Under the pieces are notes generated by a model. It saw nothing but the letters and a program-made list of their open reading frames with translations. It was not told the origin of the DNA and did not search any database. The position numbers were made by a program, and so were the translations under genes. Positions 28,440 to 64,000 of a stretch of 64,000 nucleotides of DNA are shown piece after piece; positions within the stretch are counted from its first letter, which is position 1, and each line of letters begins with the position of its first letter. Source of the DNA: Naegleria gruberi (lineage: Eukaryota); NCBI GenBank assembly GCA_000004985.1, contig GG738845.1; one strand, written 5' to 3'.

Positions 28440-28610
28440 TCTCAATCCTTGAGCTTTTAATTCATTTGTCTTATTTTATTATTTTATTATTTTGTGAGTT
28501 TAAAAACACTAATACTTCTAATAGTTGCAACTACTAGCCCAAAAAACCATCTAATCAATTCAAAAAACCTTAAAAACCATAAAAACAAAAAATACTGAAA
28601 TATCTGAAAA
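28440..28610. repeat. Dispersed repeat family C, copy 1
   Basis: ~80-85% identical to 30070-30346 (shared segments ...TCTCAATCTTTGAGCTTTTAAT...TTATTTTATTATTTTGTG...TAATAGTTGCAACTACTAGCCCA...CCATCTAATCAATTCAAAAAACC...). Confidence 0.6.
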
Positions 28611-29204: not shown

Positions 29205-29236
29205 GAAATATATATATATACACATATATATATATT
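29205..29236. repeat. (AT)n/(ATAC) microsatellite
   Basis: atatatatatacacatatatatatat. Confidence 0.8.
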
Positions 29237-30069: not shown

Positions 30070-30346
30070 GTGTCTCAATCTTTGAACTTTTAATCTATTT
30101 GTCTTAATTTATTATTTTATTATTTTGTGGATTTAAAAACAGAGATTTATCCAAAAAGCCAAGCCAAAAATTCAACCAGATTGTCCTTTTTAAAAAGCCA
30201 TATCCAAAAAAAGCGGTTTGGGATAGATATTGGATATTAATATACTCTCCTTCTAATAGTTGCAACTACTAGCCCATTAAACCATCTAATCAATTCAAAA
30301 AACCATAAATTAGAAATCCAATAAAAACACAAAATAATAAAATAAT
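30070..30346. repeat. Dispersed repeat family C, copy 2 (MITE-like, with a ~95-bp internal insertion relative to copy 1)
   Basis: Homologous to 28440-28610. Ends TTATTTTATTATTTTGTGG (~30108) and CACAAAATAATAAAATAATG (~30327-30346) are inverse complements, i.e. TIR-like. Confidence 0.55.
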
Positions 30347-31130
30347 GTTATTATTATTTGTTTGAGAATTAAAAATTTCAATTTATACGAGACAACAATT
30401 TGTTCTTAAGAGAATAAAATTTGAAAACCATATTCCACACAATATTGTTTTATTGTTGGAAAGTTTGATACTATTTTTCTAAATAATAACAAACTCAGTA
30501 ATTAGTGGAGATGTTATTAATTAACTAATTGATAAAATTAATCGGTGAAAGATAATAGAACCTAATATTTTGACCATATATTCTGGAATAATCGTTCAAA
30601 TACAGCAATACACAACCAACGTTTACCTTTTCAATATCTCTCCTTTACGAATTAGACAAAAGCATGCCTGTACTAGTTATAAACAATCATAAATAGTTTT
30701 CAAAGAAAACCAAGTTGGTGATGTTTAATTCGAAAGTGTATTGAAGAAAGTGTTTACATGAATTACTTAGAGAATTGAAATAATTAAAAAAGGAAAAACA
30801 AACCAAGCCTTATACAAATATTTAAAATTAATTCATCATGCATTTTATATGTATGATGATGTGGATTTAAAAACGAAACAATCTACCAACACTTTACAAA
30901 TAGTAAAATCAAAACTAAAAAATCATTAGAAATGTTGGAGGAGTGGGATGATATTTTTGAGGATATCAATAATACAAATCTTAGTATTACCATTTTATTT
31001 TCATTGTCTATATGTTTTGCCTACACTTTTGTATTATCGAATTATTTAGAGAAAAAGAATTGTAATTTTCAAAATATATATATTAACGATTGTATTTACA
31101 ATGGTAATACAAAGTAAATGGATTTTGTTT

Positions 31131-31423
31131 GGCGGAGGAGTCGTGTGGGATTTGGATAACAGATTTTCCATCGCATCATGCTAAGAAAAGTTGAGGCCTA
31201 AAAGACCAGAGCTTTCAAAAGATTTCTTGATTGATGTAAAAAATCCATCAAAACTAGGATGGTGACATTTAAAAACCTTGGATCTCTAAGGAATTGGTGG
31301 AAAAGCATATAGTTAAGAAAGAGAGTGAGTTTAGAGGTTTGAAGGCACTTAGGGTTTTTTCAGAAGTAATTAATTATACTTGTAAAAAAGGCGCCTTTTA
31401 GTAAAACTTTTTACGGAAGTCTA
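31131..31423. mobile_element. Compound TE fragment: solo family-B-like TIR (31131-31172) abutting a 5'-truncated, internally deleted family-A copy (31170-31423)
   Basis: 31131-31172 (GGCGGAGGAGTCGTGTGGGATTTGGATAACAGATTTTCCATC) is the reverse complement of the family-B TIR consensus (GATGGAAAATC...ATCCAAATCCCAC...). 31170-31423 aligns to 26524-26965 of copy A with two internal deletions. It ends with the same ...AAAAAGGCGCCTTTTAG...CTTTTTACGGAAGTCTA terminus. Confidence 0.55.
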
Positions 31424-31772
31424 AAATAACCATTCAAACTTTAAACAACAAACACCAAAATTCAAAAACACCTCTTTAATACTTTTGACAATAATATTAT
31501 TAAATGTATTACAAAGGTTTTTGAATTCACAAGCCCATTAAATTTCAAAATCAAGTTGTAAATGATGGTGAATGGTATTTCTGATATTTCGCACACTTGG
31601 TCATTTTTATCGTTGAGTTATTATTTATCTTTCCACCTTTCTATTTCGGCATTCCCTTCCAATTAGACTCTAGTTTTGTCCAATCATCACGTCCAATAAT
31701 AAATAATAAAATAATATTTTTATTTTAAAAAAAAAATCTCCAACAATATCCATTCATCACCAACCACAAAAG

Positions 31773-37788: not shown

Positions 37789-37931
37789 AATAAATTTTAA
37801 ACAACAGTTAATTTAATCAATTGTTTTAAAACAATGTATTTTAAAATCTCTCGGAGTTTGCATCCGGAAAACCTCTATTAGAAATCATACCCGAAAAATT
37901 ATTAATATTTTAATTTTTAATTTCGAAAAAA

Positions 37932-38699
37932 ATGAAAACCTTCCCATCCTCCACCATTTTACTCGTATTGGTGGCCCTTTTAGCTACCGTTTTGATGGTC
38001 AACGCCATTGGAGAAAATAGAAACTACATTCAAAACTTAAAGAACAAGAGAGAAATTAAATTCAATAATCCAGCAAGCACTATTGGCGGTCTTGTTCAAC
38101 ATTTAGGCTCCGTTTTGAAGGGATATCCATCAAAATTGGAATCAATTTCTTCATTGGATCTCTTTGAAAGACCATTAGTTGGTATTGTCCTTTCTCCATC
38201 AAAATCTAACGAAGTCAATGATGTTATTATCAAGAAGATTCAAAACTTGTTTGAAAATGATGTTGTTACTACCGTCTCATCTTTGAAGGAAATTAATTTT
38301 GCTACTATCCAATCTGGTATTGTTGTTGTTACCCATGTTGAAGTAAGTTTAAATTGTTGTGGATATTTCTTACGCATTCAATAGAATGTTGACAATGAAA
38401 TGAAGTTGGCTCCAGAAAGATCCGAAGTTGTTGTTTTGAATTTGGAAAAGAATCTCCAAGTAATGACACCTGCCCAAAGATTACTCTTGTCTGTTTATGA
38501 TATTAACAATACTACCACCAATAGTACAAACGTCACTGTGATTACTGACTTTGAACGTGCTGATTATCAAATGCAATTGTGGGTTTGGGTCTTTACTATT
38601 GTTTGTGTCATTTTGGCTATTTTTGCAGTCAACAAGATTGACTATTCTGCCGACCAAATGTTGTATGCACTTGAAATGACAAAGAGTCACCACGACTAA
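37932..38699 (+). CDS. Small secreted/type-I membrane protein (signal peptide plus C-terminal TM), 2 exons
   Basis: MKTFPSSTILLVLVALLATVLMVNA signal peptide. Exon 2 (from ~38393) has N-glycosylation sequons (NNTTTNSTNVT) and the TM segment LWVWVFTIVCVILAIFAV. Confidence 0.5.
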
Positions 38700-46591: not shown

Positions 46592-49500
46592 ATGAATCCA
46601 AATGAATTGTTACAGCTTCGACAAGCCCGACTTGAAGCTTTACGAGAAAACAAGAAGTTTAAGGATGAATGGGCAGAGAACAATGAAAAAATACATAAAA
46701 GAAATATGGACATTAAGAAGGAACGAGAAGCTATTGATATAAAAATTAAAACATCAATGTCTTTGAAAAAAAAAAGACAAGAGGAGGTAAGATGTCTTTA
46801 GATCCGATTATTAATTAATGTAGTTGAGAAAAAAAGTTTCAAGATCCGAAGTGTTTTCAGGCATTGAGGAGTTTGAAAAAAAGTTGGAGCATACCGAAAC
46901 CAATAAAGAACCACAACTGGAAAAAGCATCTGTGCCAGTCAATGCTAATACATCAGTCACCTCAATAGAAAAACTAGAAAAGGAAAGTTCGAACACAAGA
47001 GATGCCAACTCTTATCTTAAAAAGATAAAAGCTAAAAGAAGTGAAGAGCATGCAAGTAGAAAGGAGAAGGAGCAAAGAAGAAGAAAAGTTCTAATGGAAC
47101 AACAACAGGTGTTTAAAGACTTAGAAGAATCCAGAAGAAGAGAGGTACTACTGGAAAAATTAATGAAAAAATCTATGGAGGAAAGACAGTTAGCCAAAGA
47201 GTTAAACGAAATTAAACAATTAAAACAGGTGATGAAGGAAAATAGAGAAATAAGAGAAAAACAATATGCTGAAAGAAGAAGAAAAGATTTTGAAGAGAAG
47301 CAAAGAAGAGAAACTGACCTTATGGAAAAGGAAAAGGAGGAAAGAAAAATCAAAAAGAGGGAGTTAATTGAAAAGCACAAACTATTGTTGGAAGAGAAGT
47401 CGAAACAAAAAAGAGAAAAACATTGGAATATTTGCTTTGAGATTTCTAATCAGATCATTGATTTATCATTTAAAGAAATTGAATATGCTGAAACAACAGA
47501 AGGAGAAAAGCCAACAACAGCAGAGATTCTTGAATGGAGAAAAATGTTCGTAAAGGGTGTCTATGATGATGAATCCACAAAGGAAGATGATGCTGAGCTC
47601 GAACAGTCTAGAGAAATGGAACAAAGTCTTCAAACACATGAAACTGTTGATTTAGATGTGATTGATATGGCAGAATTTAAGGATTATTTATCATGTAAGG
47701 GAGTTTGGAAAGAATCTTCTGATGAAACAGAAAAGGTATCCAACTTTATCAAAGATGTAGTCTCAAAACTTCACGATAAGATTCATCCTCTACCTTCACC
47801 AAAGACTGAACCTGTTCTCAAGAGCAAATATTCATATAATGTAATTTTGACAGGAAAACCAATGAGCGGGAAATCAACTGTTTGCAAAAAAATAGCATCT
47901 CAACTTTCTCTCTTTCACATCAATACAGAGGCTATTTTAAAATCACTCCTGGATGGGGAGAACAAGTCATCAGAGTATTCAGAAATTGCTAATAGAGCTA
48001 GAGCCTGTTTGTTGGATGGTAGGGAAATAGATGAAGAAATAATAGTTGACTTGATATTATTGGAGATAGAAAAAGTTGAAAAAATAGAAAATACAACATA
48101 CCAAGGGTGGTTGATAGAAGGTTATCCATTGACTCTGGAGGCAGCAAAAATTTTAGAGAGAAGAATATCAGGATACACACCATCTGTGGAGGAATTTGTT
48201 GGGACAGATTCTGAAGTCAAGCTGAACTCTGTTATTCTAAATCAAAATAGTTGCAAGAAGTCTGATGAAGAGCTTATGAAGCGTTTAGTACCATTCCAGG
48301 CATTCACATCTGTAATATTTATTGATGTTGAAGATGAATTAGTTTTCGAACGATTGGCAGACCAAAAAGTGGATCCTCTTACTGGAACTGTTTACCACAT
48401 GATTTACTCACCACCTGAGAGTGTGGACATTTCTACAAGACTTGTACCAATTGATGAACATGTAAGATTGGACAAGGCTCAAATTAATTCCCAACTGGTT
48501 TCGTTTGCTAAATCAAAGCGTGAACTAATGAATTGGTATAAGAAATTTGAAAATGTGTTTGAAGCAAAAGAAAACAGTATTGATGATTTGGTAAAAGAAT
48601 GTTCCAATATTATTACTAATCACAAGAGAGAACCATTCCAAAACCACATTCAAACGGAACCAGAAAATTCAGAAATAGAGCAAAGTGGTGGACCTGAAAA
48701 AAAAGAACTCGATGTTGAATTTTGCAAGTTATTCTTGAGTGAGTGGATGTCAATAGAACAAAATTATGTGGGCAGCTGCAAATTGGTGTTTAGGAATTTG
48801 AGAGATTTTAGAAAGTCATTCTTTAAGCAATTTTCAGATCTCAAAGAGCAATTCATGAACTTTTTACTTAGACCAGACGACAAACAAGTGTATATCACTC
48901 AATTCCAGAATGACTTCAACAGATTACCATTAGAACTTAGGAGTAATTCTCAAGTGAAAGATGAGCTTCATAGAAGGTCTGAAGATCTCAAGGAAACTCT
49001 TTGGACTCTATGTGACGAGAAAAAGTTAGAGGCAGAAAAGGAATTAGAAGAGCACCAGAAAGAATCATGGTTAAAAACACACAAAAAAGCTGTCACACGC
49101 CAATACATGCAACTCATTCAATTGGAGCTTAACAGATTTATAGAACAGAGCAAGTTTTTATTTGATTATTTTGTTGAACAATACTTTTCTAACGATTTAA
49201 GCATTGGTGCAACAATTGATCTAAAGAAAACTTTATCTGCCCCAATTCTTTCTGTAAATATTGAGGAGTTATTTGTTGATGTCATCTCAGGGGCTTCAAA
49301 CACCAAATCAACAAACAAAAAGCCAACAAAACCTTCCACGAATTCCAGCACCAGATCAAAGATTGATCAACAAGACCAAGACCTTAACATTGAAGATTGC
49401 TTTGAAAGAGCAAAAACTACATGTGATACTCTAGATCTTTTAATTACACTGCAAAATTACATTGATAAAAACGGGAAAAAGAAAAAGGAGAAAACAAAGG

Positions 49501-50684
49501 ATCCCTATGTTGATATTCCTTTGGAAGTGAGAGAGTGTATGGGGAAAGAGAAGGAGATATTTTTGAGAAGGATTACGCTCATTAAGGAAAGATGTCTAAA
49601 TTCCCTTAAAGACCAACTTGAATCAAAATCTAATCATATTTTCGGCACCATGAGAGATTGGATAGGACAACGTTACAGAACCGATATGGCAAATATTGGT
49701 CTCCTTTCCAGAACCATACAAGATTTTATTGAAAAGGAAACTCCTATAGTTAACGAGATGAGAATAGAAGGTAACAAGTGTATAATAGATGAGAGTGTAC
49801 AGATGACTAACCCGTTACCATTGCACTCTACAAGTAGATCTCAATTGACTACGCAAGAAGCTCCGGAGACAGTGGTTTCCTTCACTAAATCATTCACACC
49901 ACATCAAGTATTTTCATTATACGAAAGGCTACAAGCACCAAGTCCTAGCGGATTTGTTGAGCTAGAAGAGATTACTACTACACTTTTAATTCTTATCGAT
50001 TCAACATTCGGATCAATGGAACTGCCAAACCAATGGTTAGACTATGACAATGACAAGGTTAGAGAAATTACAAAAAGGTTTGATCCATTCAAGAAGGGAT
50101 ATATTAATTGGAGAACATTTTTATTATCTGCTTTATTTACATTTTTCCATCGTCTTCCAACCATTGAGGATATTAGAAAACTCCTTTTAATAGTTCATCC
50201 GCTTGTGTCATCTGGAGAAACCAACTTAAAGCAAGAACAATTTACGGATCTTTTAATCAGATGGATTGGCGAAACAGGTATTTCAAGTAATGAGGAAGAG
50301 GTATCAAAAGTGTTGTTCAACCTTTTCAAACCATTTATTAATGCAACAGTCTCCAACACTGTAAATATTAGAAGCGTTCTCCTTTACCTTTGTTTAGATA
50401 ATCAATCAATTATTGGAACTCTCACAAAGGGATTTGAAGTATTGTCCTATCTGAATGGAACAGAAGGTTTGGATGATAGTGGTGTCTTTGAAATCATGAA
50501 TTTTAATATTGATGTTGAAGAGGACGTAGAAGATTCATTTTCACTTTCTCAAATAAGAGCAGTTTTTGCAGAACTGAAAAAGTCAAAGTCTAGTGTGTCC
50601 CTTGAAGAATTTTCATGTGCCTCCATTGGCAAGACAATGCTAAAAAAAAGTGTACATTTGAAATTGGGTTCTGTATTCTATTAG
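46592..50684 (+). CDS. Large (~1350 aa) coiled-coil protein containing an adenylate-kinase-like P-loop NMP-kinase domain, 2 or more exons
   Basis: Exon 1 46592-~46795, then the 1286-aa ORF. E/K/R-rich coiled coil at the N-terminus. VILTGKPMSGKSTVCKKIA (P-loop) ... GWLIEGYPLTLEAAKILE (the NMP-binding 'GFLxDGFPRT'-like motif), a dispersed adenylate-kinase fold. Long C-terminal region of unknown function. Confidence 0.6.
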
Positions 50685-50697
50685 AGAAATAAAACAT

Positions 50698-53421
50698 TTA
50701 CAATTTATTTTCGAGCAATTTCAATGCCATTTCTTCAGCTTCATCAAGACCAACAGTTTGCTTCTTCTTTTTTGGAACAATAGTTGGCAGATTGGATTGA
50801 GTAGCCATTAACTGGTCGAACTTTCTCTTCTTTTCGTCTGCTTTTTCTTTGACTTGCTTGTCATGTTCTGCCTTTTCTTTGAACCTTTGTGTTGTAGAAA
50901 CTTTTTGCTCTGGTTGTTCCATAGCATTCACAAAGTCTTCATAAGATTCATCAACATCCTCTTCATCAGGCAAGGCACTTGTACTGGTGTTGGGAGTGTT
51001 GGCTTTAACAACCCTTTGGTAGTCAAATGGATCTTCCTCCAAAAGATCAGCCTTTCTTCTAAGCTCTTCCAATTCTTTCTCTCTCTTCTTTGTAATTTCC
51101 TTCTGATTTTTTAATCTCTCCTTATCCTGTTCTTTATCTGTGGAAGCAGTCTTTTTCATTCTAGTTTTAATTTCATTTAGAAACTCAGAACGATCATTAG
51201 TCAAATTGGATAAGTTGGTATTCTTTAATTCGCTCAAAACAGACTCCAACTTGGATATTTTCCCACCTTCCTTGTTAAAAATAATGTGCTTTTTTCCATC
51301 AATCTTTTGCATGAATTTCTTCTTATTTACATAGAGTGGGACATTATCCTTTTCATCCAATTTGTGATTTTCTCTTTTCATATAAAAGAAATCATCATCT
51401 GCTGTAACCTCCTCTCCTATTACAATCTTGTCTAATTCTGCCTTCTTTTGCATGAATTTGTCAATTTTAGATAATTTCTTCTTTTTCTTTTCTTCTCCCT
51501 CTTCTGGTTCATTTTCCAAATCTTTTTCAGAATCTGAATCGTCTGAGTCATCGTCTGAATCGTCTGAATCGCTAGATACAGCGTTAGGATCGTACTCCAC
51601 CTGATATTGAATATCGTCATCTGCATCATCAACAGGAATACTGTCAATCATATTTTGAATTTTGACATCTTCCTCTTCGTCGCTTTCTTCATTTCTTGGA
51701 TTTTCTTCTCCTTCTGCGCTATCATAGTCAACCTCTGGTTGCTCCTCTTCATCTCCTTTTTGAATTTTACCATTCTCTGTGGTTACGTCTGATTCTGAAT
51801 CGCTTGAATCACTGGAGTCCATTTCATCCGAATCATCATCACTGCTTTGATCGTCCTCTGCATCATCCTCTGTCATATTAAGGCGTACTTCCTTCTTTAC
51901 TCTATCGCTTGGGTTCAGGATCAATACAGGTTTAATAGCAAGCCCCAGCTTGACAGCAAATGCATCCAAATTGAGTGCCTTAAAATCAATATCATAACCA
52001 TAATGTTTGTAAACATGTTTAAGATATGTTTGGAAATATTTAACAGCAGCTTGCTTTAAATTTGTATCGTGTGATAGAAGGGCAGCGAGTTGAGCTCTGA
52101 TAGTGACAATCTTTTCTGGATTAATTTTCATTTCCTTTAAACTTCCTGTTTCCAAACTATCCTTATCAAATAAAAATGTTAAGAGAGGCTTTTCTTGTGG
52201 AGTTACAACAACGACTGATTTTCCATCAGCATCATTTCTAGCAGTTCTTCCCATTCTATGAATGTAAAAAGCTTTGGAAACTGGTGCATCGAGTTGTAAA
52301 ACGAAATCTACGCGAGGAAAATCCAATCCACGAGCTGCTATATCTGTTGCAAAGAGAACTGCTGCTTTAGCTGATGTAAACCCTTCGAACATTTCTCTTC
52401 TAGAGCCTTGCGACATTCTTCCTGCCAATTTGAACATTTTAACTGATAGTGGTAAGTGTTTAAACACAGTATGTAAAAATGAGACTTGTTTCACAGTGGA
52501 CGAAAAAACAATAACCTTCTTATTTTGGTGAGACTTGAGGAAAGAGAATAAAATATCAATCTTATCTTCCAATTGACATTCAATATAGTGTTGAGTTAAT
52601 TGTTTTGGAACTGGTTCTGATTCGTGGACAGATATATATTCTGTATTTGTCTTACTTAATGAAAGTCGTGCAAGATCTTTGATATCTCTAGTTTGAGTAG
52701 CACTAAACAAAAGTGTTTGTCTGCTTTTTGGTAAGCCATCCAAAATTGAGTTCAATTCATTTCTGAAACCTAATTCAAGTAATCTATCAGCTTCATCCAA
52801 AACAAGAACTTGTAGGTTTGAACAAATAAATCCTGCTGTTTCATCCATATGTTGAAGTAATCTACCAGGTGTTGCAACAAGAATATTCATATTACAAATA
52901 TGTTCTTTTTCCTCTTTTAAATTCTTAGTACCACCAACAAGTAAACCTGCTGAAAAATGGTGGTATCTTCCACAAAGTTTTAAAACTTCGAATATTTGCT
53001 GTGCTAATTCTCTATTTGGTGATAAAATCAATGCACCAAGTCCATCAAGTTTTCCCCATCTTTTTCTATATAATAATTCTAATACTGGCAATACAAATGC
53101 TAAAGTTTTACCGGAGCCTGTTCTGGCAGCACCTAGAATATCCCTTCCTCCTAGTGCATGTAGTATTGATGCCTTTTGAATGTCCTTCATAGTGACAAAG
53201 CCAGCTTTTTTAAGTGCATCTTTAGAATATTGAGAGATTGGTAATTCTAAAAATTTACTAAATTGTGATGGCAATGCTACAGAAGATTTGGTTGATGTTT
53301 TAGCAAGAGGGTTAATTCCTTTTGGTGGTGTTAATTCAATAACTTTTTGTTTAAGTATTTCCACTTCCTCGTTCTCCTTCTTTAACTTTTCAACAGGAGT
53401 TAACCGCGTAGATCTTGGCAT
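50698..53421 (-). CDS. DBP4: DEAD-box RNA helicase DDX10/Dbp4 (ribosome biogenesis)
   Basis: 907-aa single ORF. GFVTMKDIQKASILHALGGRDILGAARTGSGKTLAF, VLDEADRLLELGF, SAT, HRMGRTAR. A long C-terminal extension with acidic tracts (DSDDDSDDSDSEKD...) is characteristic of Dbp4/DDX10. Confidence 0.85.
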   Translation of the reverse strand: MPRSTRLTPVEKLKKENEEVEILKQKVIELTPPKGINPLAKTSTKSSVALPSQFSKFLELPISQYSKDALKKAGFVTMKDIQKASILHALGGRDILGAARTGSGKTLAFVLPVLELLYRKRWGKLDGLGALILSPNRELAQQIFEVLKLCGRYHHFSAGLLVGGTKNLKEEKEHICNMNILVATPGRLLQHMDETAGFICSNLQVLVLDEADRLLELGFRNELNSILDGLPKSRQTLLFSATQTRDIKDLARLSLSKTNTEYISVHESEPVPKQLTQHYIECQLEDKIDILFSFLKSHQNKKVIVFSSTVKQVSFLHTVFKHLPLSVKMFKLAGRMSQGSRREMFEGFTSAKAAVLFATDIAARGLDFPRVDFVLQLDAPVSKAFYIHRMGRTARNDADGKSVVVVTPQEKPLLTFLFDKDSLETGSLKEMKINPEKIVTIRAQLAALLSHDTNLKQAAVKYFQTYLKHVYKHYGYDIDFKALNLDAFAVKLGLAIKPVLILNPSDRVKKEVRLNMTEDDAEDDQSSDDDSDEMDSSDSSDSESDVTTENGKIQKGDEEEQPEVDYDSAEGEENPRNEESDEEEDVKIQNMIDSIPVDDADDDIQYQVEYDPNAVSSDSDDSDDDSDDSDSEKDLENEPEEGEEKKKKKLSKIDKFMQKKAELDKIVIGEEVTADDDFFYMKRENHKLDEKDNVPLYVNKKKFMQKIDGKKHIIFNKEGGKISKLESVLSELKNTNLSNLTNDRSEFLNEIKTRMKKTASTDKEQDKERLKNQKEITKKREKELEELRRKADLLEEDPFDYQRVVKANTPNTSTSALPDEEDVDESYEDFVNAMEQPEQKVSTTQRFKEKAEHDKQVKEKADEKKRKFDQLMATQSNLPTIVPKKKKQTVGLDEAEEMALKLLENKL

Positions 53422-55134: not shown

Positions 55135-55693
55135 TTACATCTTTAATTCTTCTTGGAATTTTTGCAAGGTTTCCTCAGGAGTAAGTTCCTTCTTTTCATT
55201 CTTTTCAAAAAGAAACTCTGGCGCCTTTTCTTTATCTAAAAGTGTAATAGTTGCCATGGTTGCATTGTCACCCTTTCTGTTCTTCCACAATCTTTCAATT
55301 GATGTATAACCTCCTTGTCGTTCCTTGAATCTCTCTGGGAATGTTTGGATAGCTTTTTGGATAGCTTCTTCTTCATATAAATACGATTTAATTTGATTGT
55401 GGGCATGCTCGCTATTTCTCTTAGAAAGTGTAACCATCTTGTCGATGAAGGTTCTCAATTGCTTTGCTTTCACTATCGTTGTTGTTATTTTATCGTGTTT
55501 AATCAAGTTTGTGGTCAAACTTCTCATAAGAGCTTTATATCCAATCCATAACAAATTAATAAATGTAAAACATCCAATCCGTATCATGTTCAAAATTAAC
55601 ACGTTCCAATTTAATATCCACTACGAAATTTCGTTTACACATACCTTCTCTTTGGGCGGCGTCTCTTGAAAAATGTTTAAAGAAATGTCCTCT
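55135..55693 (-). CDS. Mitochondrial ribosomal protein bL17m (L17 family), 2 exons
   Basis: Exon 1 (~55641-55693): MRGHFFKHFSRDAAQRE plus GTATGT intron. Exon 2: ...LMRSLTTNLIKHDKITTTIVKAKQLRTFIDKMVTLSKR..., which matches the bL17 consensus (...L.RNL..SL..HERI.TT..KAKELR...). Confidence 0.75.
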
Positions 55694-55875: not shown

Positions 55876-58800
55876 ATGATCAACCGACATCATTATGCTT
55901 TCATAGGTGATTCCAGAAAGAATGGAAGTGAGTACAATCCAATACAAATGTTATTTTAATATAGATCTTTAGAACCTTATGAGCCAAAGAAAGGATCAGA
56001 CATAAACTTACCACCATTAGGGGTTAGAAAAGAGAAGGAAAGTGCAATTCTTGAAGCAGATGAATCTTCTCGGAATGATGTTTTTAAATTCAATAGAGAT
56101 GATGTATTTAATTTTGATATTAAGGATATGAGAATATCAAGCACCAGGGAGGTACGTCAAAACCCAAATCTGCTCCAGGCCAATGCTCCCCCACCAAAGA
56201 GAACTAAAGTCACGTTCAAAGGTATGTGAGGAATTGATACTTTAGTACTTAAATACAACCAGATGCGGACGAATCAATGCAAGAGAGTGCTATTGCTGAA
56301 GGAATTTCTGTTGAGGATTGGATGAAGGAAAATGAAAATATTTATGATGTTAAATTTAGGAAGGATGAAAAAACAAAACAACAGGGAAGAAGGTCTCTCA
56401 CCAGACCAGAGTCACAATCATCGTTGGATTCTAGTACATTAAAGGAAGGAAACACTAAACTACCTTATTTGAAGGATGTATTCATGAAGGAACGGGCTCC
56501 ATCAAAGCAATTAGTTCATTATTTGGATATTATTGGAGGAGAAAAACAAGTGAATACAAAAAAAATACTTAAAGTGGCTCCAGATGACGAGGAAGAAATA
56601 GCAAAGTTAAAAACTGGTGATGATGCTGTTGCCTTTTTCTCGAAAGCAGGAAAAAGTAGTAGGTATTATTTAAACTATTTGGATAACTTTGATTTTTTAA
56701 AGCTGCTGTCAAGTTTGTATATTTAAATAGAGCAGATTCAAATGGAGTTGATTACCGACCATATGATCTAGTTGTAGTTTCTAAAAGTGACACTAACCCA
56801 GAATATTTTACCATGTCTTCGACAGGTGTTGTACATATTTGCCCAGGTCAACCTACTGAGTACATGTCCCTCTCTGAATGGATGAAAGAATCAACAATGT
56901 TTAACGTTCTAAGAAGAATTAGATTTTTCAAGTACTATCTTGTTCATAAGTGCTTTAGACTCTGGTATCAAAGTAAGTTGACAACCTTAGTCATTCAATT
57001 ATCTAACGTATTTATCCAGATGCAAGATATCTTAAATATAGTAAGAAGAGAATGGATTTGGCAAGAAATTTCTTCCTTGCCAAGAAAACTTTCTCTTCTT
57101 CTGTCATGAAGATTCACAAACTTTCACACGACTTGCAATATACTCCAATTATGGACTTGAGAGATAAAGAAAATTCAAATGAGCCATCAGTAACTATTGA
57201 ACAGTTCCATGAGGCTCAAAAAGAATTGAGATCAAAATCATCTAAAACCTTTGACGAAATTATTGAGAAAATGGAGGAAATTTTGGTACAACTTTGTGAG
57301 GATGTTACTTCTAGGTCAAGAGTTCCAGATATGAATGCTTCTGAAAATATTGAAGCCTATCTCAGTGGTAAAATACCTACTCTTGAAGCTGAGGATGATT
57401 TCACAGCTAAAAAATCCAAATCTATGGTTGAGGCCCAAGAGGAAGAAGAAAAGAGACAGAGAGCCCTTAAAAAAGCAAGAGAAGAGGCGGATATGCTTGG
57501 TAATTTCATTAGAGTTTCCGACTATATGGCTGTAGAATCTTTGGTAACTTTATCAAAGAAGATTCTCGACAAATTCAAGGTTACTCTCCAAGAAACCAAG
57601 TCAATACTTTTCCTTGTAAACTTACTTTTCAAATCCGATGGTTCTGACATTGTTTTTGAACCATCTGAGGGTGCAATAATGCATGTTCTTCAATCCAACT
57701 CTGATGAAATTGTAACAACTGTCAGTCAAGTTCCAAGACTTTTATACATGCGTAAATTCAAAGTTTATTTTGATAATCTGGATAAATTCAAGATGGAAGA
57801 ACATTTAAGACAACTTCATGTTGGAAAAGTATTGCAGAGAGATGAGGTATTTAACTCAATCAAGTCTCAAATAGAAATGATGTTACACAATGATTTCTTG
57901 AAGGCGTTAGAATATGGAAAGGATTTCGAAGGATTGAAACATTGGTTCAAGTTTGGAAAAGAATGGGATGATAAGTATGCAGAAAAGAGACACACTGTCC
58001 AAGAATTTACTGAAAAAATTAAGCATGTCAATGATGCTCTCCTTGAGTTGAAGAGAATGAACTTTGTGCAAGAAAAAGGAATTCTTTTTATTGACAGCAA
58101 ACAGTTAAGAAATACTTTGCAACCAATTATGGAGAGTATTTACGAGCAAATTAAACTTTCTATAAGTGTTACATCCCGAGAAATGTGTCTAGAACTTAAT
58201 AAGAAGTTCATTGAGAGAGTAAGAATCATGAAGGAAGAGCCAACCAAGCTGAAGGACTTTGCCAAGTTCATAGATAACCACAATAAGATCAGAAAGGAAA
58301 CTCGTCAACTCATGATAGCGGCTGATGAAGTTGAAAAGATGAATGAACTTGCTGCAAAGAACAAGGTTGAAATGGACAGAGCAGACCAAGTTGCTTTGGA
58401 ATCATTGAAAGAAATTAAGGATGAGTTTTTGCAAGTATTCAAAAAGGCAGAACTCTACAAGGAGAATAATATGGCTTCAAAGAAAAGCGAGTTGGAAGAA
58501 AATGTTCAAAAGGTTAGTGATGACCTTTTGGACATGATGACAGTGCTCAGAAATCCTCCATTCATTACAGCTGATGCTGACCCAGTTGATGTTTTGGAAA
58601 GACTTTCTAGACTTGGTGAGGAGATTGCCCAATTTAAAGAAAAAACAGAAATCTACAAAGAGTACCAAATTCTACTTGAGGCACCAGTTAAGGAATGGAC
58701 CAATTTAACAGGCGCTGAAACTCAATTCAATGTTAGAAGTCAAATTTGGAAGGCTATAGATGAATTTTCAAAGAAGTCTGACCTTTGGGATACCACTGAC

Positions 58801-59712
58801 ATCCAAAAACAAGATATTAGTGACATTGAGCAAGAGGTTGAAAAATATTATCAACTTGGAATTGAAATGGCCAAATTTGGAGAGGATGATGTTGTAAAGT
58901 TGTTGAAGAAAACTGTGCAGGTTTGGAAAGATAATTTACCAATAATTTTAATGATTGGTAATAAGGACTTGAAGCCTCATCACTGGGAACAAATATTCAA
59001 AGGTATGAATAAGGAATCTGCCAAAGGAGCTTCCTATACACTTAGACAATTGGGTACTCTTGGTATTTTTATGTACAAAGATTTGATAACAGACGTTTCA
59101 AAAGCAGCAACAGGAGAAGCTCAATTATTTAAAAGCTTGGAAGTTATCGCTCAAACCTGGAGAGAAACTGATTTTGATTTCAAAGCTCTTCCACATAGAA
59201 AAGATTTTTACATATTGAATCAAACTGATAATATTCAAATGCTCTTGGATACTCATAAGAGAACCCTCAGAGAAATGTTGGATTCAAAATATGTTTCTGT
59301 AATTAGAACTAGAGTTGAGGATTGGATAAAAAAGTTGGAAAATGTAACTGTAATATTCCAAGAGTGGCTTTCTTGCCAGAGAAGACTTTTATCTTTGGAA
59401 TACATTCTCACATCTGATCTCATCAAGAAAGAGAATCCAGAAGATGTTGCCAAATACATTTCTGTCAGTTCAGAATTCAAAGATTTAATAAGCAAAACAA
59501 GTCTTAATAGAAATGTGCTGGTAGCTACTCATGAGGAAGGAATTTTAGAAACATTTGGTCGTTGGAATATGGCTTTTGATGAAATTGAGAGGAACGTAAA
59601 AACCTCAGAGGAGGGAGCTGCTGCTCTTGCTGAAGAAAGCGAGGACGACCAAGATGTTTCCTCTGAATCTGATTTGGATGAGCATGCCTACGATGAAGAG
59701 GATGAGTATTAA
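55876..59712 (+). CDS. Dynein heavy chain N-terminal (tail + start of linker) protein lacking the AAA+ motor. A truncated DHC-like gene, at least 5 exons.
   Basis: Exon ~56727-56970: ...YRPYDLVVVSKSDTNPEYFTMSSTGVVHICPGQPTEYMSLSEWMKESTMFNVLRRIRFFKYYLVHKCFRLWYQS (DHC_N1-type motif). Within the 886-aa terminal ORF: ...ILMIGNKDLKPHHWEQIFKGMN... and ...VIFQEWLSCQRRLLSLEYILTSDLIKKENPEDVAKYISVSSEFKDLI.... These match the conserved start of the dynein linker (DHC_N2: NPxLRxRHWxQ...; EEWLxxQxxWLYLEPIFSSEDIxxQ). The ORF terminates at 59712 in an acidic tail (SEDDQDVSSESDLDEHAYDEEDEY), not in AAA1. Confidence 0.6.
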
Positions 59713-59732: not shown

Positions 59733-62147
59733 TTATTGTGTTTCGTCCATCTTTTTGTTTTGTTCTGGTTCTTGTTTTTGTTCAGTTGGCTTTTCTTCCT
59801 TCTTTGGTTCTTCTTTTGGTTTTGGCTTTGTGACAATTGGAGTGGCAACCTTTCTTAAATCCTTCTTACGATTTTCAATGAAAGCACATGTTAAAATTGG
59901 GTCAGAAGACTTGGCAACCTTATCTTGTTGAGCAAGTTGTTCATTCAACCAAGTATTTGTTTCGGATACCTTATCAGCAACTTTTTGTTTTTCTTCATTG
60001 GTAATATGGTTGTATTGTTCAGTATTGGCATTATCTACAAAGGTTTGGAATTCCTTGATTGTTTCTTGTAATTGTTTAATGCCTTCTGGTCTAGCTTCGA
60101 ATTCCTTCAACCTATTTTCAACTCTATCACCAACCTTCTTGAGTTCAGCAAGTTTTTCTTGATAGACAGTCTTTGTTGTGTTTTCACCATCACCATATAA
60201 CCATGATTCAGTATCATCCAATGTGAGGATAAAGTTATCTCTATCTTGATCATTAATAAATTCATAGAGATCACCACCTTCATAAAGTCTTTCCTTCATA
60301 TTATAACAGAAACTTTCAACGTTATTCTTTGCTTCAGCAGTAGTACGAACGTCCTTGTCACGATTTCTCATTGATTGTTCAACATTCAAGTATTGATTGA
60401 AAAGCTCTGTAGTGATACCTGGAACTGTGGTGAGGACCTTCAAGTTGTGTTTAATAGTCTTCTTCTTCTTGACAAGTCTTGTTTTTGGTTTTTCATCCTT
60501 CTTTTCTTCAGCAGGCTTTTCTTGAGATACTTCTTCAGTTGTATCCATCTTGTTTTGTTCCAATTCTTCTTTTGGAATTGGTTCTTCTTCTTCAACTTCA
60601 ATTTCTTCAGAGGCAGTAGCTTCTTGAACTTCAACTAAACCCAACATGTTGTGTCTCATCTTGATCTTAATCTTCAATGGTTCATTTCTTTGTGGAATGT
60701 CAGTAATTGTGAATTTACCCATAATACTACTAGTACCAGCTGGAAGAAGGGAAGGATCAGAGTAGACTGTAAACAAATCAAATGTCTTAGACTTGTTAAA
60801 AGTAAGCATCTTGGATGAAGGAGTACCTTCAAATTGTTTGAAAAGTGTTGATTGTTTCAATGAAGAGAGAACAGATGCTTCATCATCATCGACCATTTTG
60901 TCATCACTTTCTGGATTGGCAACCCATCCCAAATTGACACCATGATAAATTGAATCAATAACATTAAATTCACGAGCAAGAGTAAACTTTGGACTAATCA
61001 TGGCAGCTTGAATAGCAGCTCCCTTAGCAACACTTTCAGTTGTGTTTAAAGTGGATTGTACTTCCTTTCCGATAATCTTTGCCAATGTTTCTCTAATAAC
61101 TGGAATATATGAAGCACCACCCAACAATTCAACAGTTGTCAATTGTTCAGCTGTAATACCAGCTGATTCCAAAGCTCTTTTAACTGGAGCTTCAAATCTA
61201 GATAAGACTGGTTGAACCAATTGAATGTATTCGTCTCTCTTAATTTGGAATTGAATATCCTTTTCATTCATCAAACATTCAATTCTCAAATTAGAAACTG
61301 GATTAGAACTCAAGAATTTCTTCAATTTTTCACATTCTCTTGCCAAACGAATAACTGCCTTAGGATTTGTAGTAACATCCATCTTGTATTTGGTCTTGAT
61401 TTCTTCAACGTAGTGGTCATACAAAGCCTTTTCAAGTGCATAAGCTCCCAAGTTTGGATCACTAGCACAAGATAAGACACGAAGTTGTGACTTTTTGAAT
61501 TCAATAATGTAGACGGAAGTATCAAGGTGACCAACATCAACAAAGGCAATGTTTTGAGCTTCCTCAGGGAAATCCTTATAGATGCCATAACCCAAAGCAG
61601 CAGCAGTGACATCGTGCATAACACGAATAACATTCAAACCAGCAATTTCAGCTGCTTTGACCACATCACGTCTTTGAATTTCATTAAAGTAGCAAGGTAC
61701 GGTAATAACACAATCGGATTCACGGAATCCAACAGAGCTTTCAACATCATCTACAATTTTACCAAACAGCATACCTAATAACTGAACTGGGCTAAGAAGT
61801 TTGGATTCAGCATCGTTATCATGGAGCTTATAACCATCAATCTTGAATAGAATTTCATCATTTGGGCCTTGGAAAATTGGAACAGAAATATTAGCATGGA
61901 GAACTTCTGGTGTAAGTTGACTATATTTTAATCCAATGAATCGTTTAATAAGTGAAATGGTTCTTTGATAGTGACTGATTTGTGCACCCATACCACTTTC
62001 TCCAATCAATCTTTCATTTTCCGAGAAGGAAACATAGACTGGTGTATATCTTCGGGAGAATTCATTGGTAACAATATCAATAGAACCTTTCTTTGCAATA
62101 CCAACTACACAATTTTGAGAACCCAAATCAATTCCGAGAACTGGCAT
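59733..62147 (-). CDS. SSE1: Hsp110/Sse1-type Hsp70-family nucleotide-exchange chaperone
   Basis: 804-aa single ORF. MPVLGIDLGSQNCVVGIAKKGSIDIVTNEFSRRYTPVYVSFSENERLIGESG... (Hsp70 NBD with Hsp110-specific features). An extended acidic insertion and long C-terminal helical domain are typical of Hsp110 rather than canonical Hsp70. Confidence 0.9.
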   Translation of the reverse strand: MPVLGIDLGSQNCVVGIAKKGSIDIVTNEFSRRYTPVYVSFSENERLIGESGMGAQISHYQRTISLIKRFIGLKYSQLTPEVLHANISVPIFQGPNDEILFKIDGYKLHDNDAESKLLSPVQLLGMLFGKIVDDVESSVGFRESDCVITVPCYFNEIQRRDVVKAAEIAGLNVIRVMHDVTAAALGYGIYKDFPEEAQNIAFVDVGHLDTSVYIIEFKKSQLRVLSCASDPNLGAYALEKALYDHYVEEIKTKYKMDVTTNPKAVIRLARECEKLKKFLSSNPVSNLRIECLMNEKDIQFQIKRDEYIQLVQPVLSRFEAPVKRALESAGITAEQLTTVELLGGASYIPVIRETLAKIIGKEVQSTLNTTESVAKGAAIQAAMISPKFTLAREFNVIDSIYHGVNLGWVANPESDDKMVDDDEASVLSSLKQSTLFKQFEGTPSSKMLTFNKSKTFDLFTVYSDPSLLPAGTSSIMGKFTITDIPQRNEPLKIKIKMRHNMLGLVEVQEATASEEIEVEEEEPIPKEELEQNKMDTTEEVSQEKPAEEKKDEKPKTRLVKKKKTIKHNLKVLTTVPGITTELFNQYLNVEQSMRNRDKDVRTTAEAKNNVESFCYNMKERLYEGGDLYEFINDQDRDNFILTLDDTESWLYGDGENTTKTVYQEKLAELKKVGDRVENRLKEFEARPEGIKQLQETIKEFQTFVDNANTEQYNHITNEEKQKVADKVSETNTWLNEQLAQQDKVAKSSDPILTCAFIENRKKDLRKVATPIVTKPKPKEEPKKEEKPTEQKQEPEQNKKMDETQ

Positions 62148-62439: not shown

Positions 62440-62787
62440 TTAAAAATACAAATATCCTCCACCACCAAAATTTGTTGTTTGTCTCTTTGAAAATAATGAA
62501 GAGAAGAAGCTGTGTGTCACACCAATACCATCATCTTCTAGGTTTCTAATTTGAAACTCTTTTACCTGTTCTTTGGCTCGGATGTAGTTATCTGATAACG
62601 TTAAAATATTTGTTTTTTCTCTTCTCTGCAGTGAAGAAACGCTTCGAGAGAGTCTTTTTCGATAAGTTTCTTGATCAATGATTTGAGAGGCTTCATATGA
62701 AAGGTTTAATATTAAACCTCTTGTGTCTTCATTCATCTCTGAAGAATCCAATGTTTGCTTTCGTTTTTTCGATAATCGTTGACCCAT
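62440..62787 (-). CDS. Small 115-aa protein with an N-terminal myristoylation-type motif (MGQRLSKK...)
   Basis: Single ORF between Hsp110 and the HMG gene. Gly2 followed by Ser6 and basic residues. No homology recognised. Confidence 0.35.
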   Translation of the reverse strand: MGQRLSKKRKQTLDSSEMNEDTRGLILNLSYEASQIIDQETYRKRLSRSVSSLQRREKTNILTLSDNYIRAKEQVKEFQIRNLEDDGIGVTHSFFSSLFSKRQTTNFGGGGYLYF

Positions 62788-63241: not shown

Positions 63242-64000
63242 TTATTTTCGAGATTTGTAAGAGTTTTTCTCTTCTTCACTTAGACTCTTCCAAGCTTCTG
63301 CAACTTTTTTTGAAATCTGGTTGATTGTAAGATTAGGATGTTGTTGTTGAAATTCGAGAAAGTGAATTTTGCAGAAAATATTATATGCATTGAGTGGCTT
63401 CTTAAGGACTGGAGTTGAATTTTTTGACTTTTCAATGTAAGGTTGTTTTTCATCATTGGAAAGGGATTTCCACTTCTCACCTATAAATTTAGAAATTTGG
63501 TTAATAGTTAAATCAGGATATTGTTCTTGGAATTCTGGAAAGTGAACTTTGCAAAAAATGTTATATGCGTTAAGTGGTCTTTTGACTCGAGAGTACTTTC
63601 CATTGTTATCCTTAATTATTTCCGAGAATTCATCATCTAATTGAAGAAATAGCTCACTATTCGAAAGGTCTCCCAGTTGAGCGACACCCATAACAACGGA
63701 TCGCTTCAAATAGCGATCACGCTCATCTTGCATTAAAGCTTTCCATTGCTCTCTAAGTAACAATGAATTCGATGCAGCATCTCTATGTAGTGGAACTGTT
63801 TCTCTACAATAAAGTTCAAACCCTAAACGATCCTCTTCAACAACTTCAGCACTTACATTACTTGGGTTGACAGGAGAACTTGATACAGTTGAATGAGTAT
63901 TGTTAGAATCTGATGATTCTAATACTTCGCTTCCTGGATTGATTGATCCATGTGTTGTATCAATTAAGCTAGCTAGCCTTGACCTATCAGCAGATGAAAA
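63242..64000 (-). CDS. Tandem HMG-box DNA-binding protein (MATA-HMG-like), 5'-partial (runs off window end)
   Basis: Two HMG boxes: KRPLNAYNIFCKVHFPEFQEQYPDLTINQISKFIGEKWKSLSNDEKQPY and KKPLNAYNIFCKIHFLEFQQQHPNLTINQISKKVAEAWKSLSEEEKNSY. The minus-strand frame stays open upstream of the first Met to position 64000. Confidence 0.75.
   Translation of the reverse strand, partial: FSSADRSRLASLIDTTHGSINPGSEVLESSDSNNTHSTVSSSPVNPSNVSAEVVEEDRLGFELYCRETVPLHRDAASNSLLLREQWKALMQDERDRYLKRSVVMGVAQLGDLSNSELFLQLDDEFSEIIKDNNGKYSRVKRPLNAYNIFCKVHFPEFQEQYPDLTINQISKFIGEKWKSLSNDEKQPYIEKSKNSTPVLKKPLNAYNIFCKIHFLEFQQQHPNLTINQISKKVAEAWKSLSEEEKNSYKSRK

What the first reader, a model, noticed from the sequence alone, without database searches (positions are those of the whole stretch)
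63242..64000. Tandem HMG-box (MATA-HMG-like) gene at the window edge
Two adjacent HMG boxes sharing the KRPLNAYNIFCK.HF.EFQ..P.LTINQISK...WKSLS..EK..Y pattern lie within one ORF. This is the box type used by mating-type/sex-determining HMG proteins of early-diverging fungi, where large MATA-HMG families exist. The internal duplication of the box (two ~80% similar copies in tandem) is itself notable. The gene is truncated by the window, so its N-terminus is unknown.
Basis: partly seen in the sequence, partly recalled or inferred. Interest (0 to 1): 0.5.

Follow-up and report, generated by a model that had tools for sequence, protein, structure and literature searches.

The report
Annotated Naegleria triple HMG-box gene
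The flagged stretch is the 3' half of an already annotated, intron-less Naegleria gruberi gene for a DNA-binding protein with three HMG boxes that is specific to this group of amoebae. It is not a fungal mating-type gene, and it is ordinary apart from a small internal gene-conversion patch.

Summary
On the minus strand, 63242-64000 is an open frame of 252 codons running off the window, with two HMG boxes (Pfam PF00505, E=1.8e-35).

The organism is the heterolobosean amoeba Naegleria gruberi, not a fungus. The ORF is the C-terminal half of XP_002683459.1, a 521-aa "HMG-box domain-containing protein". A 99.9%-identical metagenome contig supplies the missing 5' part and shows a single exon.

Orthologues occur in N. 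lovaniensis and Willaertia magna, and N. gruberi has a paralogue.

The tandem is ancient. The high box similarity is specific to N. gruberi. The first 32 residues of box 2 are 81% identical to box 1, against 31-59% in relatives. This points to an old intragenic gene conversion.

Class HMMs built from published MATA, SOX and HMGB datasets put every box of the family in HMGB-UBF.

The most likely function is a nuclear DNA-bending regulator; this is inferred, not shown.

Interest is low.

The parts
63242..64000 (-). C-terminal 252 codons plus the TAA stop of N. gruberi gene XP_002683459.1 / EFC50715.1 / D2UY07 (521 aa, single exon). The CDS continues about 0.8 kb beyond the window end.
   Evidence: Open frame. 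100% match to residues 258-509 of P0003, which clusters with P0152 = XP_002683459.1. Contig L001 overlaps the last 1062 nt of the window at 99.9% and carries the whole uninterrupted ORF.
63962..64000 (-). Tail (FSSADRSRLASLI) of the family-specific basic motif KKGIKKKRKYIKSGL[FY]RKDxxGxF[LI]FSSxDR[AS]RL. The rest of the motif lies outside the window. It looks like a nuclear localisation signal.
   Evidence: 14 invariant columns across 10 family members. Net charge +11. Modelled as a beta-hairpin plus helix at pLDDT 51-67. No Pfam or PDB relative.
63677..63838 (-). Box 0: a degenerate HMG box (aa 55-108 of the window ORF) that lacks the basic N-terminal strand and has net charge -1. It probably does not bind DNA by itself.
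   Evidence: In-window tblastn to box 1, E=0.003. hhalign gives 91% and 90.5% probability to the box 1 and box 2 profiles. Best PDB profile hits are a UBF1 HMG box (1v64, E=7.9e-7) and TFAM box B. Three helices in the AF2 model, block-mean pLDDT about 66-83. Not detected by Pfam.
63422..63586 (-). Box 1: an HMG box (aa 139-193) with a short helix 3 of 12 residues. It runs straight into the N-terminal strand of box 2, giving a 60-aa period.
   Evidence: Pfam best stretch 139-193, matching profile positions 1-55 of 69. Helices 414-429, 435-448 and 451-462 in P0152, with pLDDT 81-91. The 60-61 aa spacing holds in all 10 family members.
63245..63409 (-). Box 2: an HMG box (aa 198-252) whose helix 3 is cut to 9 residues by the stop codon. 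Orthologues continue with YYEDAxKQRQEN...
   Evidence: helices 474-489, 495-508, 511-519. Alignment with orthologues. The lost tail is not in any downstream frame. An independent assembly has the same stop.
63308..63403 (-). Acceptor of the inferred intragenic conversion: residues 1-32 of box 2 (KKPLNAYNIFCKIHFLEFQQQHPNLTINQISK), which carry the box-1 signature.
   Evidence: 79% nt and 81% aa identity to box 1 here, against 43% nt in the remainder of the box. 81-84% identity to orthologous box-1 N-halves against 47-53% to orthologous box-2 N-halves. Box-1-like at 10 of 11 diagnostic sites and box-2-like at none; bootstrap 100%.
63488..63583 (-). Donor of the inferred conversion: residues 1-32 of box 1.
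63242..63244 (-). TAA stop codon.

Best explanation
The region is the 3' half of an intron-less Naegleria gruberi gene that RefSeq has already annotated automatically (XP_002683459.1, 521 aa). The gene belongs to an uncharacterised, heterolobosean-restricted family of multi-HMG-box proteins. SHOWN: the window part encodes three HMG-fold domains. These are a degenerate, non-basic box 0 and two basic boxes, box 1 and box 2. Boxes 1 and 2 form an unusually compact tandem with a 60-aa period and third helices of only 12 and 9 residues. By sequence class the boxes fall in the broad HMGB-UBF group, not MATA or SOX. The tandem predates the Naegleria/Willaertia split. In N. gruberi the first ~32 codons of box 2 were overwritten by box-1 sequence in an old intragenic conversion, and the end of box 2 was lost. 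This explains why the two boxes look so alike here. INFERRED: the protein is nuclear, because of the strongly basic KKGIKKKRKYIK motif. Boxes 1 and 2 bind and bend DNA through the minor groove. The long low-complexity N-terminus, the conserved N-terminal block, the acidic patch and box 0 would recruit partners. That makes it an architectural transcription regulator, similar in logic to UBF, HMO1 or SOX proteins. Whether binding is sequence-specific is open. The Asn typical of sequence-specific boxes is present (PLNAY) but not invariant in the family. The usual hydrophobic DNA wedge is replaced by an invariant Asn (AYN), as in TFAM box B.
For: Identity: the neighbouring Hsp110-like gene is an exact match to N. 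gruberi XP_002683458.1. The ORF is 100% identical to residues 258-509 of P0003, which clusters with XP_002683459.1. L001 extends the locus and carries one uninterrupted ORF. Domains: Pfam E=1.8e-35. The AF2 model has pLDDT 81-91 in boxes 1 and 2 and three helices in each box. Foldseek against the PDB returns only HMG-box structures, including tandem HMGB1, Abf2p, TFAM and SOX. Box 0 is supported by hhalign and PDB profile searches. Family: orthologues in N. lovaniensis (58%) and Willaertia magna (55%), paralogues in N. gruberi and N. fowleri, and metagenome relatives, all collinear. Class: all 19 boxes score best with HMGB-UBF. PDB profile searches place the boxes about equally far from SOX, NHP6A, HMGB1 and TFAM. 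Conversion. Wedge and Asn positions: alignments to SRY and TFAM and invariant columns Y10 and N11. Charge pattern.
Against: No expression, localisation or DNA-binding data exist, and no paper mentions the gene. The functional part rests on domain logic only. The truncated third helices could weaken or change DNA binding. The AF2 model is confident only within the boxes (mean pLDDT 52.8, pTM 0.24). The HMGB-UBF profile is the broadest of the three and acts partly as a default class. Box 1's margin over MATA is only 8.8 bits. The conversion is inferred from protein mosaicism in a single species, without orthologue DNA.
Confidence: 0.7

Rival explanations
1. One reading: a mating-type or sex-determining HMG gene of the MATA type that specifies mating identity as a sequence-specific transcription factor.
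For: Both boxes carry the Asn of the RP.NA[FY] motif that is near-universal in MATA and SOX references (26/27 and 16/16) and rare in HMGB references (1/30), by counting the sequences used. Box 1's MATA score is not negligible at 41 bits. From general knowledge, HMG factors control sex in fungi and animals, and Naegleria has meiosis genes but no known mating system.
Against: The organism is not a fungus, and MATA_HMG is described as fungal-only (PMC2999568). Every box classifies as HMGB-UBF. The Asn is replaced by Ser in N. lovaniensis box 2 and in box 1 of the paralogue subfamily. The two independent N. gruberi-type copies are 508/510 identical, so there is no idiomorph-like divergence. One collinear orthologue was recovered in each of N. 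lovaniensis and Willaertia magna, and there is no expanded family. The nearest named relatives found were plant HMGB7 and Histomonas HMGB3.
Confidence: 0.04
2. A mitochondrial DNA-packaging or transcription factor of the TFAM/Abf2 type, in which two tandem HMG boxes wrap mtDNA.
For: The box 2 profile's top-ranked PDB entry by summed score is TFAM (69.9 bits over two boxes, box A 44.5; the best single-box score is TOX, 49.1), and the box 1 profile hits Abf2p box 1 at 43 bits. Abf2p gives the best tandem superposition (TMt 0.42-0.44). The AYN motif matches TFAM box B. Short relatives P0053 and P0057 (165-200 aa) have the same compact tandem and presequence-like N-termini.
Against: The protein has 521 aa. 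Its N-terminus starts MEFLSS, is not conserved among orthologues, is rich in N, Q and S, and is not Arg-rich. It has a strong NLS-like basic motif and an acidic patch. It also carries an extra degenerate box and conserved N-terminal modules that TFAM and Abf2 lack. No targeting predictor was available, so the N-terminus was judged by eye.
Confidence: 0.05
3. A generic, abundant, non-sequence-specific chromatin protein of the HMGB/NHP6 type that loosens chromatin genome-wide rather than regulating particular genes.
For: The HMGB-UBF class is the best match for all boxes. NHP6A and HMGB1 are among the best PDB sequence matches. Named database relatives are HMGB proteins.
Against: Canonical HMGB and NHP6 proteins are small, with one or two boxes plus an acidic tail (general knowledge). 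Here the boxes make up the last third of a 521-aa protein with family-specific modules and long low-complexity regions. Asn, rather than Ser or Thr, occupies the specificity position. The family is restricted to one lineage and has diverged into subfamilies, which fits a regulator better than a housekeeping chromatin protein.
Confidence: 0.15
4. A decaying gene in N. gruberi: the conversion patch and the loss of the box 2 tail reflect relaxed constraint, and a paralogue does the work.
For: N. gruberi alone lacks the conserved YYEDAxKQRQEN tail and has a mosaic box 2. A paralogue, XP_002669270.1, exists.
Against: The ORF is intact over 521 codons. It is identical across the 252 window codons and 508/510 identical overall in an independent metagenome assembly. 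Most differences between the converted tract and its donor are at third codon positions (13 of 20), which fits continued purifying selection. Unrelated metagenome relatives also end in a box 2 with a short helix 3 (P0116, P0138, P0149).
Confidence: 0.04

Closest known systems
HMGB-UBF class of HMG boxes (HMGB1, NHP6A, UBF, HMO1, SSRP1)
   Same: Pfam HMG_box fold with three helices and the conserved aromatic core (Y, W, Y). Best-scoring class profile for every box. Several boxes in one protein, including a degenerate non-basic one, as in UBF; the best PDB hit of box 0 is a UBF1 box.
   Different: Asn instead of Ser/Thr at the base-contacting position of the N-terminal strand. Asn instead of a hydrophobic wedge residue. 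Third helices of 9-12 residues, matching only profile positions 1-55 of 69. A 60-aa box period, against about 74 in Abf2p and about 105 in TFAM from the alignment coordinates. Family-specific N-terminal modules with no Pfam match.
TFAM / Abf2p (mitochondrial tandem HMG-box proteins)
   Same: Two adjacent boxes. Best tandem structural match (Abf2p). The AYN motif of TFAM box B.
   Different: More than twice as long. No evident presequence. NLS-like motif. A third box. A much shorter inter-box spacing.
Sequence-specific HMG transcription factors (SOX/TCF of animals, MATA_HMG of fungi)
   Same: The KRPLNAY / KKPLNAY motif with Asn. Transcription-factor-like architecture, with a DNA-binding domain plus long low-complexity regions. 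SOX-5 and SOX-2 are the best single-box PDB matches of box 1 (56 and 53 bits).
   Different: The class profiles score 9-14 bits below HMGB-UBF for the N. gruberi boxes. The organism lies outside Opisthokonta. There are two or three boxes rather than one. The wedge position is Asn rather than Ile or Met. The Asn is not invariant in the family.

Membership tests
HMG-box superfamily (Pfam PF00505 / PF09011) | Significant match to the HMG_box profile above the gathering threshold | tested here: met
   121.6 bits against a cutoff of 25.4, E=1.8e-35, two stretches. The same result holds for full-length P0152 and 7 relatives.
HMG-box superfamily (Pfam PF00505 / PF09011) | Three-helix L-shaped fold | tested here: met
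   The AF2 model has three helices per box at pLDDT 81-91. All significant Foldseek PDB hits are HMG boxes. Helix 3 is shorter than usual, at 12 and 9 residues.
HMG-box superfamily (Pfam PF00505 / PF09011) | Conserved aromatic core (aromatic residue in the N-terminal strand/helix 1, Trp in helix 2, Tyr in helix 3) and a basic N-terminal strand | tested here: met
   Invariant Y10, W41, Y52, K4, P6 and L7 in the alignments of box 1 and box 2. Box 0 keeps F, W and Y but lacks the basic strand.
MATA_HMG (fungal mating-type HMG class, CDD cd01389) | The box sequence groups with the MATA_HMG class rather than with SOX-TCF or HMGB-UBF | tested here: not met
   Class HMMs built from Martin et al. 2010 Datasets S2-S4. 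All 19 family boxes score best with HMGB-UBF. N. gruberi box 1 scores MATA 41.1 against HMGB 49.9; box 2 scores 31.5 against 45.3. Leave-one-out was 72/73 correct. CDD itself and early-diverging fungal references were not available.
MATA_HMG (fungal mating-type HMG class, CDD cd01389) | Occurs in Fungi | tested here: not met
   The genome is Naegleria gruberi. MATA_HMG is described as confined to Fungi (PMC2999568).
MATA_HMG (fungal mating-type HMG class, CDD cd01389) | Sits at a mating-type or sex locus with divergent alleles or idiomorphs (for Mucorales, flanked by TPT and RNA helicase genes) | tested here: inconclusive
   Only two copies were available, and they are 508/510 identical. A DEAD-box helicase lies about 10 kb away with five genes between. 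The other flank is outside the window.
MATA_HMG (fungal mating-type HMG class, CDD cd01389) | Asn in the RP.NA[FY] motif of the N-terminal strand | tested here: met
   KRPLNAY and KKPLNAY. The feature is shared with SOX/TCF, so it is not diagnostic for MATA. It is Ser in some family members.
SOX-TCF HMG class | The box sequence groups with the SOX-TCF class; metazoan distribution | tested here: not met
   SOX profile scores of 37.7 and 26.5 bits are below HMGB-UBF. The organism is a heterolobosean.
HMGB-UBF HMG class | The box sequence groups with the HMGB-UBF class | tested here: met
   Best class for all 19 boxes, with margins from +1.4 to +36 bits. This is the broadest class, so membership says little.
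HMGB-UBF HMG class | Ser/Thr (not Asn) at the specificity position and a hydrophobic wedge residue after the aromatic residue | tested here: not met
   The position holds Asn in most family boxes. The wedge position is an invariant Asn. Only 1 of the 30 HMGB references used has Asn at the specificity position (sequences).
TFAM/Abf2 mitochondrial HMG proteins | N-terminal mitochondrial presequence and a small two-box protein | tested here: inconclusive
   521 aa with three boxes. The N-terminus is not conserved and not presequence-like by inspection. No targeting predictor was available.

The most novel reading that the evidence does not exclude
The heterolobosean family may be an independently evolved set of sequence-specific HMG transcription factors outside Opisthokonta. 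Its features would be Asn at the specificity position, a compact 60-aa double box with truncated third helices and no hydrophobic wedge, plus a new basic accessory motif. It might control a developmental switch such as amoeba-to-flagellate or cyst differentiation, or a cryptic sexual cycle.
Probability: 0.1. Interest if true: 0.5.

Novelty: new member of a known kind. Interest (0 to 1): 0.15.

Why it matters
It matters little beyond annotation. The gene is already in RefSeq and UniProt as an HMG-box protein, and nothing links it to mating type. Three modest points remain. First, the family is an uncharacterised DNA-binding family, restricted to one lineage, in a group where almost no transcription factors have been studied. 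Second, its very compact double box with short third helices and no wedge residue tests what an HMG box needs in order to bend DNA. Third, the N. gruberi mosaic box is a clear small example of intragenic gene conversion between repeated domains. It shows how such an event can make an ancient repeat look like a recent duplication.

Tried and rejected
- Contig extension through the neighbouring Hsp110 gene failed, because that protein is not on record in the gene-position index. Extension succeeded through P0003, giving L001.
- The two word-index protein searches missed the 100%-identical N. gruberi protein and all orthologues. They returned only a fragment (P0001) and, among named hits, plant HMGB7 and one Histomonas HMGB3. 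Only the exhaustive HMMER search found the family.
- The source assembly of P0001 (GCA_041447055.1) could not be read.
- The bacterial promoter/terminator scan is irrelevant for a eukaryote.
- I looked for the lost box 2 tail in the three downstream frames and by tblastn, to test for a frameshift or an intron. Nothing was found, and there is no GT donor before the stop.
- A PDB profile search with the basic motif found nothing significant.
- Pfam finds no domain other than HMG boxes in eight full-length family members.
- Literature searches for Naegleria plus HMG box and for the accession numbers found nothing relevant.
- sexM/sexP sequences are cited only by accession in the supplements of PMC2999568, so no direct comparison with early-diverging fungal boxes was possible.
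- In one search my translation of L001 was off by one base. That part of the output is meaningless and is not used. Only the mismatch position and the charge table are used.
- The DEAD-box helicase 10 kb away was considered as Mucorales-like sex-locus synteny and rejected as coincidence.

Full report
**Observation.** The finding lies on the minus strand. Reading from 64000 downwards gives 252 sense codons and a TAA stop at 63242-63244. Pfam HMG_box matches at E=1.8e-35 with two stretches, and HMG_box_2 at E=1.2e-24. A phmmer search of the PDB returns only HMG-box proteins. Box 1 is aa 139-193 (63422-63586) and box 2 is aa 198-252 (63245-63409). Their KRPLNAY and KKPLNAY starts are exactly 60 residues apart. 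No other HMG box occurs elsewhere in the 64-kb window.

**Organism and gene.** The convergent neighbour at 59733-62147(-) is an Hsp110-type Hsp70. Its 804-aa product is letter-for-letter N. gruberi XP_002683458.1 / EFC50714.1, on a 1.56-Mb scaffold. An exhaustive HMMER search of 1.84 billion representatives matched the window ORF at 100% identity to residues 258-509 of P0003. P0003 clusters with XP_002683459.1 / EFC50715.1 / D2UY07, a 521-aa "HMG-box domain-containing protein [Naegleria gruberi NEG-M]". So the gene is already annotated, and the genome is a heterolobosean amoeba, not a fungus. The metagenome contig L001 (ERZ929261, 1974 bp) overlaps the last 1062 nt of the window with one mismatch, at 63047 in the 3' flank. 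It supplies the missing 912 nt. The ORF is uninterrupted and collinear with orthologues, so the gene has a single exon. The NEG-M and metagenome proteins are 508/510 identical.

**Family.**
- Orthologues: N. lovaniensis XP_044554009.1 (775 aa, 58%), Willaertia magna KAL9644837.1 (578 aa, 55%), and metagenome sequences.
- A second subfamily includes N. gruberi XP_002669270.1 (695 aa) and N. fowleri XP_044556235.1.
- Shorter metagenome relatives (373-536 aa) also exist.

The alignment shows a shared plan:
- a variable N-terminus rich in N, Q and S;
- a conserved block (..NVLNADETKQTK..MPT..), present in the orthologues;
- an acidic patch;
- a striking basic motif, KKGIKKKRKYIKSGL[FY]RKDxxGxF[LI]FSSxDR[AS]RL, with 14 invariant columns;
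- the HMG boxes.

Pfam sees nothing but HMG boxes, and the basic motif has no PDB relative. No paper mentions the gene or the family.

**Anatomy of the window part.** A third, degenerate box sits upstream at aa 55-108 (63677-63838).
- It has weak in-window similarity to box 1 (E=0.003).
- hhalign gives 91% and 90.5% probability to the box 1 and box 2 profiles.
- Its family profile hits a UBF1 HMG box (1v64, E=7.9e-7) and TFAM box B.
- AlphaFold models three helices there, with block-mean pLDDT about 66-83.
- It lacks the basic N-terminal strand and has net charge -1.

Boxes 1 and 2 are modelled confidently (pLDDT 81-91) with three helices each. Their third helices have only 12 and 9 residues, and Pfam matches only positions 1-55 of 69. 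The 60-61-aa period is present in all ten family members, so the compact tandem is an old family trait. Foldseek against the PDB finds only HMG-box structures. The best tandem superposition is on Abf2p (TMt 0.42-0.44).

**The internal duplication.** In every other family member, box 1 and box 2 are 31-59% identical in their first 32 residues. In N. gruberi they are 81% identical there (79% in DNA), against 43% aa and 43% nt in the remaining 21 residues (53% aa over residues 33-49). The break falls sharply after ..INQISK.
- The N-half of N. gruberi box 2 is 81-84% identical to the box-1 N-halves of N. gruberi, N. lovaniensis and a metagenome orthologue (72% to Willaertia). It is only 47-53% identical to the orthologous box-2 N-halves.
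- Its C-half is 71% identical to orthologous box 2.
- At sites that separate orthologous box 1 from box 2, it is box-1-like at 10 of 11 sites in residues 13-30 and box-2-like at 5 of 6 sites in residues 33-43.
- Bootstrap support is 100% for the N-half and 88% for the C-half.

This is the signature of an intragenic conversion from box 1 into the 5' half of box 2, in the N. gruberi lineage. It is not recent: 11 of 26 identical residues use different codons. Most differences are at third positions (13 of 20), which fits continued constraint. N. gruberi has also lost the conserved end of box 2 (YYEDAxKQRQEN...). The tail is not in another frame or behind an intron, and the same stop occurs in the independent assembly.

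**Class test.** Martin et al. 2010 (PMC2999568) state that HMGB is the oldest class and that SOX and MATA_HMG are confined to Metazoa and Fungi. Their supplements hold the core sequences of each class. I built HMMs from 27 MATA_HMG, 16 SOX-TCF and 30 HMGB-UBF cores; a few of these came from the PDB alignments. Leave-one-out classification was 72/73 correct.
- All 19 boxes of the Naegleria family scored best with HMGB-UBF.
- N. gruberi box 1 scored 49.9 against MATA 41.1 and SOX 37.7.
- N. gruberi box 2 scored 45.3 against 31.5 and 26.5.
- Genuine MATA members prefer their own class by a median of 32 bits and a minimum of 10 bits.

Profile searches of the PDB agree that the boxes are not close to any one class. 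For box 1 the best hits are SOX-5 (56 bits), SOX-2 (53) and NHP6A (51). For box 2 they are TOX (49), SOX-18 and BBX (46), NHP6A (46) and TFAM box A (44.5). The only named relatives found by the word-index search were plant HMGB7 and Histomonas HMGB3.

There are two limits. HMGB-UBF is the broadest profile, and the MATA references are all ascomycete. Sequences of sexM/sexP and Glomeromycotina were not obtainable. According to the same paper, sexM groups with SOX and sexP with MATA, and both of those classes score lower here.

**Mechanism (inferred).** Boxes 1 and 2 keep the basic N-terminal strand, the aromatic core and a positive net charge (+3 and +5). They should therefore bind the DNA minor groove like other HMG boxes. 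Two positions stand out.
- The residue aligned with SRY Asn10 is Asn in most family boxes. This is the state typical of sequence-specific boxes: 26/27 MATA and 16/16 SOX references against 1/30 HMGB references. However, it is Ser in N. lovaniensis box 2 and in box 1 of the paralogue subfamily.
- The residue aligned with the intercalating wedge is an invariant Asn in both boxes of all members, as in TFAM box B. That the aligned residues (SRY Ile13, TFAM Leu58) are wedges comes from the structural literature as I recall it.

So bending probably relies on another contact, or is weaker. Together with the +11 basic motif (NLS-like), the acidic patch and the long low-complexity N-terminus, the most economical reading is a nuclear architectural transcription regulator. 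Sequence specificity is unresolved.

**Rivals.**
- Mating-type factor, about 0.04: wrong taxon, wrong class, no allelic divergence in the two copies available.
- TFAM/Abf2-like mitochondrial protein, about 0.05: structural and motif resemblance, but 521 aa, no evident presequence and an NLS-like motif. Short relatives P0053 and P0057 do look mitochondrial.
- Generic abundant HMGB chromatin protein, about 0.15: right class, but the wrong architecture and distribution.
- Decaying gene, about 0.04: the ORF is intact and conserved.

**Verdict.** The HMG-box call is right and the MATA reading is not supported. The gene is an already annotated but uncharacterised member of the HMG-box superfamily, from a family confined to heteroloboseans. 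Its only unusual features are a compact short-helix tandem, a degenerate third box and a species-specific conversion patch. Interest is low.

Noticed in passing
window 57052-59712 (+): An 886-aa ORF matches only dynein heavy chain N-terminal region 2 (DHC_N2, E=3e-57). It ends 20 nt from the stop of the convergent Hsp110 gene, so there is no room for the AAA motor downstream. It may be a truncated dynein-heavy-chain-like gene or a fragmented gene model.
   Followed up: no
window 50698-53421 (-): A DEAD-box RNA helicase lies about 10 kb from the HMG gene. Mucorales sex loci are TPT-HMG-RNA helicase. Here five genes intervene and the other flank is outside the window, so I treated this as coincidence.
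   Followed up: partly
window 46824-50684 (+), 55135-55602 (-), 59733-62147 (-): The neighbouring genes are ordinary: a SPEF2/CPC1-like flagellar protein with an adenylate kinase domain, a ribosomal protein L17 family gene (Pfam Ribosomal_L17), and an intron-less Hsp110-type Hsp70 (XP_002683458.1).
   Followed up: partly
window 62440-62787 (-): A 115-aa ORF starting MGQRLSKKRK lies between the Hsp110 and HMG genes. It has no Pfam match, and whether it is a real gene is unknown.
   Followed up: no
proteins P0053 (200 aa) and P0057 (165 aa), ENA metagenome contigs: These short proteins consist of the same compact 60-aa double HMG box, closest to the P0010/P0011 subfamily. It is preceded by a presequence-like N-terminus (MISSRRVVQSSAYL...). 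They are candidate mitochondrial Abf2/TFAM analogues; their source organisms are unknown but may be heteroloboseans.
   Followed up: partly
proteins P0116, P0138, P0149 (JGI metagenome contigs): These Q-rich proteins from unidentified eukaryotes also end in a compact double HMG box whose last helix is cut short by the stop codon, as in N. gruberi. A short terminal helix 3 may therefore be tolerated widely.
   Followed up: no
tool behaviour: The word-index homology search missed a 100%-identical database protein and all orthologues, which the exhaustive HMMER search found. A 'no homologues' result from the word-index tool should not be trusted for low-complexity eukaryotic proteins.
   Followed up: yes
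window 28001-32000 and 36001-38000: These stretches have lower G+C (0.26-0.28) than the window average of about 0.33. I did not examine them.
   Followed up: no
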